From the NCBI GenBank assembly GCA_964016885.1, contig OZ024744.1, positions 5,704,001-5,768,000 of the forward strand: a DNA stretch of 64,000 nucleotides, in the 5' to 3' direction. Origin of the DNA: Eledone cirrhosa (lineage: Eukaryota). This document shows, piece after piece, positions 41,743 to 43,034 of the stretch; within the stretch, counting starts at the first letter, position 1; every line of letters starts with the position of its first letter. Below the pieces are notes generated by a model. That model saw nothing but the letters and a program-made list of their open reading frames with translations, was not told the origin of the DNA and did not search any database. A program made the translations under genes and the position numbers.

Positions 41743-43034
41743 CATAAGGTCTTCGAAATGCTTTTAATTAAGCATACAGTGTATTGCAAAATACACTATA
41801 TATGCATGCATATATATATATATATATATGTGTATATATATATATATATATATATATATATATATATATATATATATATATATATATATATATATATATA
41901 TATATATATATATATATATATATATATATATATATGAATGTATATATAGTGTATTTTGCAATACAGTGTATGCTTAATTAAAAGCATTTCGAAAACCTTA
42001 CGCTATTGTTTTAGAGTAGTGACAGACTCACTTACTTTAATTTTCAGCAAACAGGGGGAGATAAAGCTGATAAGGCCTTGATAGTTGATAAGCATCAATA
42101 AATGCGAAACAAGGCCTTGTCAGCTTTATCTCCCCCTGTTTGTTGAAAATTAAAGTAAGTTAGTCTATCACTACTCTAAAACAATAGCATAATGACTTCG
42201 AAATGCTTTTAATTAAGCATACAGTGTATTGAAAAATACACTATATATACATTCATATATATATCGCTATTCCAGAGCACCAATTCTAATTTTCAATTTC
42301 TGCTTGACCGGCAACCGCTCTGTATACTCAGATCCTGATTATTACTTGAATTCTATAAGAACCAAACATCCATGATTTCAGCAAACAGGAGGAGTACTTG
42401 GCTTTGATAAGCATCAATAAATGCGAAACAAGGCCTTGTCAACTTTATCTCCCCCTGTTTGCTGAAAATTAAAGTAAGTGAGTCTGTCACTACTCTAAAA
42501 AATAGCATACGGTCTTCGAAATGCTTTTAATTAAGCATACAGTGTATTGCAAAATACACTATATATAAATTCATATATATATAGCTATTTCAGAGCACCA
42601 ATTCTAATATATATATATATATATATATATATATATATATATATATATATATATATATGAATGTATGTATAGTATAATATACTATACATACATTCATGTA
42701 TACATCGCTATTTCAGAGCACCAATTCTAATTGACCGGCAATCGCTCTGTATAAACAATTCTTGATTATTACTGGAATTCTATAAGAATCCAGCCTCTAT
42801 AATTTTCGGCAGAGGTCGGCGAGTACGTTGCTCTGAGGAACACCAACAGTGTGAAACAGAATCTGTCAGGTTATCTCCCTTCCTTTGCTGAAAAAAGAAG
42901 TAAGTGACATAGTCACTTCTTTAAAATAATACCGCAAGGTCTTCAAAATATTTTAATTAAACATACAGTATATTGCCAAATATATTGTACATACATTCAT
43001 GTATACATCGCTATTTCAGAGCACCAATCCTATT
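41743..43034 (+). ncRNA. Tandem ~319-nt hammerhead-containing repeats (candidate non-LTR retrozyme array)
   Basis: GUC sites end at 42121, 42440 and 42867; the first two are 319 nt apart. Inverted arm at 41933-42080. No ORF. Confidence 0.8.

What the first reader, a model, noticed from the sequence alone, without database searches (positions are those of the whole stretch)
42085..42867. Catalytic-core covariation: U3-A8 hammerheads alongside a C3-G8 relative
Seen: three copies of the 319-nt family read TTGATAA where CUGANGA is expected (42085-42091, 42404-42410, and 22083-22089 on -), while the diverged copy reads CTGAGGA (42833-42839). Established: core positions 3 and 8 form a Watson-Crick pair in the active hammerhead, and the C3U/G8A double change preserves it. 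Inference: this is compensation rather than decay, implying selection on catalysis; searches for literal CUGANGA would miss these copies.
Basis: partly seen in the sequence, partly recalled or inferred. Interest (0 to 1): 0.75.

Follow-up and report, generated by a model that had tools for sequence, protein, structure and literature searches.

The report
Retrozyme whose hammerhead core switched twice
These are decayed copies of an abundant ~320-base repeat carrying a predicted self-cutting RNA motif whose core C-G pair is replaced by U-A in about half of its thousands of genomic copies, a known swap that here sits on two separate branches and likely reflects selection to keep cutting.

Summary
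Observation confirmed. The four motifs are type I hammerheads of a ~320-nt non-coding repeat, a non-LTR retrozyme. The 'diverged copy' is not decayed: it belongs to its own large C3-G8 subfamily. Those counts mostly reflect descent. With positions 3 and 8 masked, trees need two switches. A single U3-A8 clade is rejected on trimmed sets (p 4e-5) but not on the 189-row set (p 0.14). Mismatched copies are scattered and match neutral decay. Helices I-III also covary. Selection on the replicating lineage is therefore likely. None of the four window copies has an intact helix I, and cleavage is untested. U3-A8 is published in nature (PMC3088659; ~1,300 hits in PMC4209133). The scan already noted this family, and two origins, on other DNA of this genome. 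Side lead: 4 of ~244 loci fuse the repeat directly to one Penelope-like family, a candidate helper.

The parts
42085..42121 (+). Hammerhead core U3-A8 (subfamily A), helix II GCAU/AUGC, palindromic helix III, C17 at 42121; 5' strand of helix I lost at the inversion junction
42376..42468 (+). Complete type I hammerhead U3-A8 (core 42404-42410, C17 at 42440) with long helix I and internal loop; C.A mismatch at 2.2-1.2
   Evidence: region 42376-42475 folds at z -8.3
42085..42608 (+). Forward arm of a subfamily A insertion: one 319-nt unit plus 206 nt, long 3' end, ending in (TA)n
41926..42080 (-). Inverted, 5'-truncated arm of the same insertion, short 3' end (unit position 180), ending in (TA)n
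   Evidence: I1: 155 nt, 94% complementary
42803..42894 (+). Type I hammerhead C3-G8 (subfamily B; core 42833-42839, helix II ACAC/GUGU, C17 at 42867); G.G mismatch at 2.3-1.3
42650..43032 (+). Separate subfamily B insertion in the same TA tract, with a short inverted arm at about 42650-42673
22053..22089 (-). Hammerhead core U3-A8 (same clade as A; helix II GUAC/GUGC, palindromic helix III); helix I 5' strand lost at inversion
21911..22283 (.). Two-armed insertion: arm 22089-21911 (short end) and inverted arm 22093-22283 (long end), both ending in (TA)n
41743..41819 (+). 3' fragment of the family (unit positions 104-180)
17834..18059 (+). Older relic of the family (resembles subfamily M) with the hammerhead core deleted

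Best explanation
The TTGATAA and CTGAGGA copies are two core states of one ~320-nt non-coding repeat family whose type I hammerhead motif has a U3-A8 pair on two separate branches and C3-G8 on the branches between, likely because only RNAs that can still cut themselves get copied onward. Shown: the motif anatomy, the genome-wide counts, the two-switch tree, paired changes in helices I-III, tandem ~320-nt units, and back-to-back 5'-truncated arms ending in (TA)n. Inferred from known non-LTR retrozymes: tandem transcripts would self-cleave after C17 into monomers, a host ligase would circularise them, and a Penelope-like reverse transcriptase/GIY-YIG endonuclease would paste them into TA tracts. 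Copies with a 3-8 mismatch would arise by mutation after insertion but would not found subfamilies. The four window copies are likely inactive or impaired descendants.
For: Counts: UA 2062, CG 2034, CA 63, UG 52, other 107 of 4318; controls 0. Mismatched rows are scattered: CA 18 rows need 17 changes and UG 16 rows need 16, whereas CG/UA rows alone need 2 (198 of 237 extracted copies). Two changes also, with 0 of 200 bootstrap trees giving one; AU p 3e-84 (49 rows) and 4e-5 (54 rows). Outside positions 3 and 8, 48 majority sites group D with its C3-G8 sister I against F and K, and 0 group the two U3-A8 lineages D and K. Mismatch rates (parents assigned by eye) are 2.5% and 1.9% from CG, 0.4% and 0.6% from UA. 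They predict about 1 chance double change; 2 such strays are listed. In 58 core-independent rows every one of 14 subfamily labels has a Watson-Crick 3-8 majority, and other core letters are kept in 54-58 of 58. Pair 2.1-1.1 is U-A in 44 and C-G in 12 of 58 rows, with two switches; helix II pairs also change in step. PLE-type ends: 20 of 25 loci have arms on both strands, and 14 of those 20 pair a short with a long end, as described for PLEs in PMC8557442. U3-A8 is reported active in vitro, by citation in PMC3088659.
Against: On the 189-row quick tree a single U3-A8 clade was not rejected (p-AU 0.144); the rejections use the most central copies per subfamily. D and K share an identical 11-nt patch around the core, so a short transfer is not excluded. 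No cleavage was measured. In 14 of 15 representative copies the hammerhead fold lies 0.5-8.1 kcal/mol above the predicted minimum-energy fold, often with the core strand invading helix III. Some mismatches occur in both arms or units of one insertion (C3-A8 at C3:283973384/283973616 and C8:38482487/38482753; U3-G8 at C1:255497263/255497583, and in L344). A mismatched template may thus have been copied at least once, or the arms were homogenised later. Amplified subfamilies carry odd junctions: A.A at 10.1-11.1 in D and M, and an extra A before G12 in N. Invariance of nine core positions alone is weak: 97 of 270 columns vary overall, 36 of 168 in the body.
Confidence: 0.75

Rival explanations
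1. U3-A8 arose once and was moved between lineages by a short template switch or conversion patch; still compensation, but one event.
For: The 11 nt from -4 to A9 are identical in D and K, and 4 of those 11 differ from K's sister F. The AU test on 189 rows did not reject one clade.
Against: Flanking sites -6, -5 and 10.1 group K with F, so any patch is at most 11 nt. The two shared non-3/8 letters (G at -4, U7) also occur in C3-G8 subfamilies I and J, and U7 in T. An intermediate subfamily K with U3-A8 and F's 5-nt loop exists (about 40 of 57 matches).
Confidence: 0.12
2. The three-helix junction is kept for recognition by the helper protein or for RNA stability, not for cleavage.
For: No cleavage data. 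Minimal hammerheads of metazoan PLEs cleave poorly in vitro (PMC4209133). Naiad PLEs spread without hammerheads (PMC8557442). Odd junction variants were amplified.
Against: The 3-8 pair belongs to the active conformation (PMC3088659). U16.1 is kept in 55 of 58 rows and position 17 is only C or U. Invertebrate retrozyme hammerheads cleave efficiently (PMC7229834).
Confidence: 0.08
3. Founder effect without selection: a doubly mutated copy happened to become a source element and the hammerhead is a passenger.
For: Both changes are the commonest transitions, and about 1 chance double is expected among dead copies. The thousands of copies reduce to two events.
Against: No mismatched state founded a group although singles are about 50 times commoner. 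Both changes fall on the same short branch twice (0.021 and 0.038 of about 0.69 internal length; joint chance about 0.002 by hand arithmetic). Several other pairs switch in step.
Confidence: 0.05

Closest known systems
Metazoan non-LTR retrozymes (Cervera and de la Pena 2020, PMC7229834: passages and Discussion read; Li et al. 2026, 10.64898/2026.07.22.740005: part 1 of 5 and passages)
   Same: Tandem units of 170-400 nt, one type I hammerhead per unit, non-coding, AT-rich, thousands of copies, PLEs present in the same genome.
   Different: About half of the counted copies have a U3-A8 core; about 15 subfamilies form a ladder with two core switches; most sampled subfamily A insertions are short and two-armed. 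The passages read do not mention U3-A8 in retrozymes; supplements were not opened and may list related families.
Natural U3-A8 hammerheads (Perreault et al. 2011, PMC3088659: section 8 and passages; Schistosoma Cercyon PLE min-HHRs, about 1,300 hits, PMC4209133: parts 1-2 of 4)
   Same: The same C3-G8 to U3-A8 covariation, also missed by a CUGANGA descriptor.
   Different: Here it is in a full hammerhead (4-bp helix II, 2-5-bp helix III, long helix I) rather than a minimal one, and both states can be placed on one family tree.
Penelope-like elements with C-terminal GIY-YIG (PMC8557442: passages)
   Same: 5'-truncated partial tandems, inverted adjacent arm, tail at one end only (26 nt here against 30-40 described), (TA)n targets.
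   Different: No ORF (longest stop-free frame 52 codons); no sequence shared with the PLE ends tested.

Membership tests
Type I hammerhead ribozyme | Core U4 G5 A6, A9, G12 A13 A14, A15.1-U16.1, H17 | tested here: met
   All four window copies; 54-58 of 58 rows per position in a core-independent sample, 41 of 58 fully intact.
Type I hammerhead ribozyme | Watson-Crick pair 3-8 | tested here: met
   4096 of 4318; 54 of 58.
Type I hammerhead ribozyme | Helices II and III closed, helix I open-ended | tested here: met
   Met for the family (paired changes across subfamilies). In the window copies helix I is lost (42085, 22089) or has one mismatch (42404, 42833).
Type I hammerhead ribozyme | Tertiary contact between helix I internal loop and loop II | tested here: inconclusive
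   An internal loop lies 4-6 bp out in helix I and loop II usually starts CAA; the contact was not modelled.
Type I hammerhead ribozyme | Match to an Rfam hammerhead model at gathering score | tested here: not met
   None in the window; HH9 17.7-17.9 bits against 52. The C3-G8 copy is missed too, so this reflects model scope.
Type I hammerhead ribozyme | Self-cleavage after position 17 | not testable with these tools
   Needs an in vitro assay or RNA end mapping.
Non-LTR retrozyme | Tandem units of 170-400 nt with one type I hammerhead each | tested here: met
   Core-to-core periods mostly 304-325 nt; array of at least 7 units in L023.
Non-LTR retrozyme | Non-coding, low GC | tested here: met
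   Longest stop-free frame 52 codons; GC 0.28 in the 42001-44000 bin, which includes TA tracts.
Non-LTR retrozyme | Expressed as linear and circular monomer RNA | not testable with these tools
   Needs RNA data for this organism.
Non-LTR retrozyme | Co-occurrence with autonomous PLEs | tested here: met
   RVT_1 at 45571-46710 followed by GIY-YIG at 46820-47335; GIY-YIG at 62757-63239.
PLE minimal hammerhead (min-HHR) | Helix II of 7-8 bp, extra base at 9/10.1, little or no helix III | tested here: not met
   Helix II 4 bp, no extra base, helix III 2-5 bp as monomer.
Pseudo-LTR of an autonomous PLE | Repeat continuous with an RT-EN ORF as that element's own 3' end | tested here: not met
   32 of 353 loci have a PLE-like protein match. 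The four direct fusions have the PLE's own 3' end and own hammerhead pointing away.

The most novel reading that the evidence does not exclude
This family is a natural, replicated experiment in catalytic-core turnover. C3-G8 and U3-A8 were exchanged twice independently in a replicating animal RNA, each time together with helix III becoming a perfect palindrome (I to D, F to K), so the weaker pair may be rescued by dimer cleavage. In addition, four insertions in which the repeat is fused to a 5'-truncated arm of one PLE group are single mixed integration events that name the helper enzyme.
Probability: 0.25. Interest if true: 0.6.

Novelty: new member of a known kind. Interest (0 to 1): 0.33.

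Why it matters
It gives phylogenetic rather than anecdotal support that the 3-8 pair of a genomic hammerhead is under selection, and supplies matched natural pairs (F against K, I against D) for assays. It also shows that CUGANGA-only screens, and Rfam at gathering score, miss at least half of this family. The element class and the U3-A8 variant are already published, so the gain is incremental. The fusion lead would matter more, because the helper of animal retrozymes is proposed but not shown in the passages read (PMC7229834).

Tried and rejected
Rfam: no hit at gathering score; the miRNA-family hits at low E-value come from the long inverted repeat and were rejected. Treating the raw 4096 to 115 ratio as proof was rejected, because copies share descent. 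'Diverged copy = decayed copy' was rejected. A link between U3-A8 and G10.1-C11.1 (1908 of 2062 UA against 115 of 2034 CG) was rejected as a rule: it reflects one clade, F has G-C with C3-G8, and D has A.A with U3-A8. Rooting the ladder by copy divergence failed; medians of 0.018-0.091 show no clear order, so two gains cannot be told from a loss followed by a gain. A first core parse of the body-selected copies mis-registered helix III and favoured intact cores; it was replaced. No shared 3' sequence between the repeat and the candidate helper PLE was found. The primary biochemical papers on 3-8 exchange could not be read, nor the paper on dimeric PLE hammerheads, so activity of U3-A8 rests on the citation in PMC3088659. 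PMC7151607 (one passage) and PMC13282606 (passages) added nothing. Searches for U3-A8 wording turned up only PMC3088659 and PMC4209133 as relevant; (listing only) showed no obvious report of retrozyme-PLE fusions. The library is partial, so none of this shows absence from print.

Full report
Observation. Each continues into a 4-bp helix II, GAAA, helix III and UC, which is the order of a type I hammerhead. The window lies in a 3.0-Gb genome rich in (TA)n and retroelement debris; its organism was not established. The window holds three insertions with a core: a two-armed subfamily A insertion (41926-42608), a subfamily B insertion in the adjoining TA tract (about 42650-43032) and a two-armed insertion at 21911-22283. 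Two of the four motifs sit at inversion junctions and have lost the 5' strand of helix I; the other two each carry one mismatch in proximal helix I. Rfam does not call any of them.

Family. Both core types belong to large families: 2933 and 2036 candidates, with the best 40 of each at 95-98% identity. A body motif has 6910 exact matches. Tandem periods are mostly 304-325 nt, with an array of at least 7 units in L023, and no frame exceeds 52 codons. Among 25 distinct subfamily A loci, 20 have arms on both strands and 14 of these pair a short end (unit position ~180) with a long end (~206), usually running into (TA)n. That matches the PLE layout described in PMC8557442 (passages). PLE-type RT and GIY-YIG frames are in the window (3 of 7 frames tested had no Pfam hit). 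The element fits the non-LTR retrozymes of PMC7229834 and 10.64898/2026.07.22.740005.

A pattern leaving positions 3, 7 and 8 and helix II free has 4318 exact matches and 0 for the reversed control. U3-A8 accounts for 2062, C3-G8 for 2034, C3-A8 for 63 and U3-G8 for 52; 107 are other. Independence would give about 2105 mismatched. The pattern fixes the other core letters and misses subfamilies L, M and N, so I also took the first 100 body-motif matches (98 distinct rows). Of these, 58 retain both flanks of the core: 37 U3-A8, 17 C3-G8, 2 U3-G8, 1 G3-G8 and 1 inversion artefact; 41 have a fully intact core. The other 40 rows are truncated or inverted before the core.

How many events. With positions 3 and 8 masked, U3-A8 needs two changes on every tree: 198 of 237 copies, 189 of 324, 49 central copies and 54 central copies from 149 labelled of 203. 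The unrooted order is M, D (U-A); I, J, H, B, T, G, F (C-G); K, E, C, A, N, L (U-A). The three U3-A8 window copies belong to the second U-A clade and the 42833 copy to B. One U3-A8 clade is rejected on the trimmed sets (p-AU 3e-84 and 4e-5; 0 of 200 bootstrap trees) but not on the 189-row quick tree (p-AU 0.144). Site patterns give 48 to 0 against joining D with K outside positions 3 and 8, yet an 11-nt patch around the core is identical in D and K, so a micro-transfer remains possible. The root could not be placed. Mismatched copies do not cluster: 17 changes for 18 C3-A8 rows and 16 for 16 U3-G8 rows (these rows were fetched on purpose, so their share is not a frequency). Assigning parents by eye gives rates typical of GC-to-AT decay and about one chance double change; two such strays appear.

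Other pairs. Pair 2.1-1.1 switches from U-A to C-G twice. Pairs 10.2-11.2, 10.3-11.3, 10.4-11.4 and 15.4-16.4 change on both sides between subfamilies (the within-subfamily fractions for helix II are circular because the labels use those letters). The ribozyme region varies more than the body: 61 of 102 against 36 of 168 columns.

Against. Nothing here measures cleavage. The hammerhead fold is not the predicted minimum in 14 of 15 representatives (gap 0.5-8.1 kcal/mol), although tertiary contacts and dimers are not modelled. A few mismatches are shared by both arms or units of one insertion. Subfamilies with A.A at 10.1-11.1 or an extra A before G12 were amplified. I could not read the primary papers on 3-8 exchange.

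Mechanism. Most likely (0.75), tandem transcripts self-cleave at C17, monomers are circularised by a host ligase and a PLE enzyme writes them into TA tracts. Only source RNAs with a paired 3-8 position would found subfamilies. The route between states is probably a transient U3.G8 wobble (inference). The cleavage, circularisation and helper steps are inferred from known retrozymes.

Helper lead. In 4 of about 244 distinct places (L009, L117, L210, L308) the repeat is fused, with 0-4 nt between and no TA tract, to a 5'-truncated GIY-YIG and 3' UTR of the PLE group seen at window 59516-63690. The PLE 3' end points away into (TA)n. Four other PLE probes gave 0 of 5, 24, 10 and 9 matches fused, a fifth gave 1 of 86 at a TA-like end, and a sixth had no match. 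The fused group is also abundant (42 and 27 matches, overlapping), and the one-long-one-short rule holds in only 2 of the 4. Later deletion between two neighbouring two-armed insertions is therefore a real rival.

Known and new. Natural U3-A8 was reported in PMC3088659 and at about 1,300 sites in PMC4209133. Earlier notes of this scan describe the same family in this genome, one already saying it likely arose twice; they are unchecked AI notes and not independent support. My tree result preceded those look-ups. Verdict: real compensatory covariation in a new member of a known class; interest 0.33.

Noticed in passing
L009:1460, L117:1454, L210:1411, L308:375 (L354): Repeat fused without a TA tract to an inverted, 5'-truncated 3' part of one PLE group (like window 59516-63690): candidate mixed insertions naming a helper, or later deletions.
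   Followed up: partly
subfamilies D and K (e.g. L142, L228): On both branches leading to D and K helix III becomes a perfect palindrome, while their C3-G8 sisters I and F have imperfect ones; M and part of L (U3-A8) and part of B (C3-G8) are exceptions.
   Followed up: partly
L275, L278, L322, L327, L344: Amplified subfamily N has an extra A between 11.1 and G12, an unusual place for a core insertion.
   Followed up: partly
subfamilies D, M, I, J, H, T: Non-standard 10.1-11.1: A.A in D and M, U.U in I (half), J, H, T. U.U is a published variant (PMC3088659).
   Followed up: partly
window 33911+, 39303+, 43532-, 43697+, 44002-, 50980+: Unrelated minimal hammerheads (CUGAUGA, long helix II, GAAAUAU) near PLE-like frames.
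   Followed up: no
window 63447+ and about 59381+: C3-G8 hammerhead-like motif in the 3' UTR and upstream repeat of the PLE at 59516-63690.
   Followed up: no
window 45084-47338+, 49844-50848-, 57841-59433-, 11078-11875+, 32158-33771-: Several broken PLE-like RT or GIY-YIG frames of different families; other non-LTR RT fragments at 6635-7933, 23447-25350, 36318-38123 and 52759-55060 were judged by eye only.
   Followed up: partly
window 17834-18059: Relic of an M-like copy with the hammerhead core deleted between the two arms of helix I.
   Followed up: partly
family alignment: The ribozyme helices change faster between subfamilies than the rest of the unit (61 of 102 against 36 of 168 columns); unexplained.
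   Followed up: no
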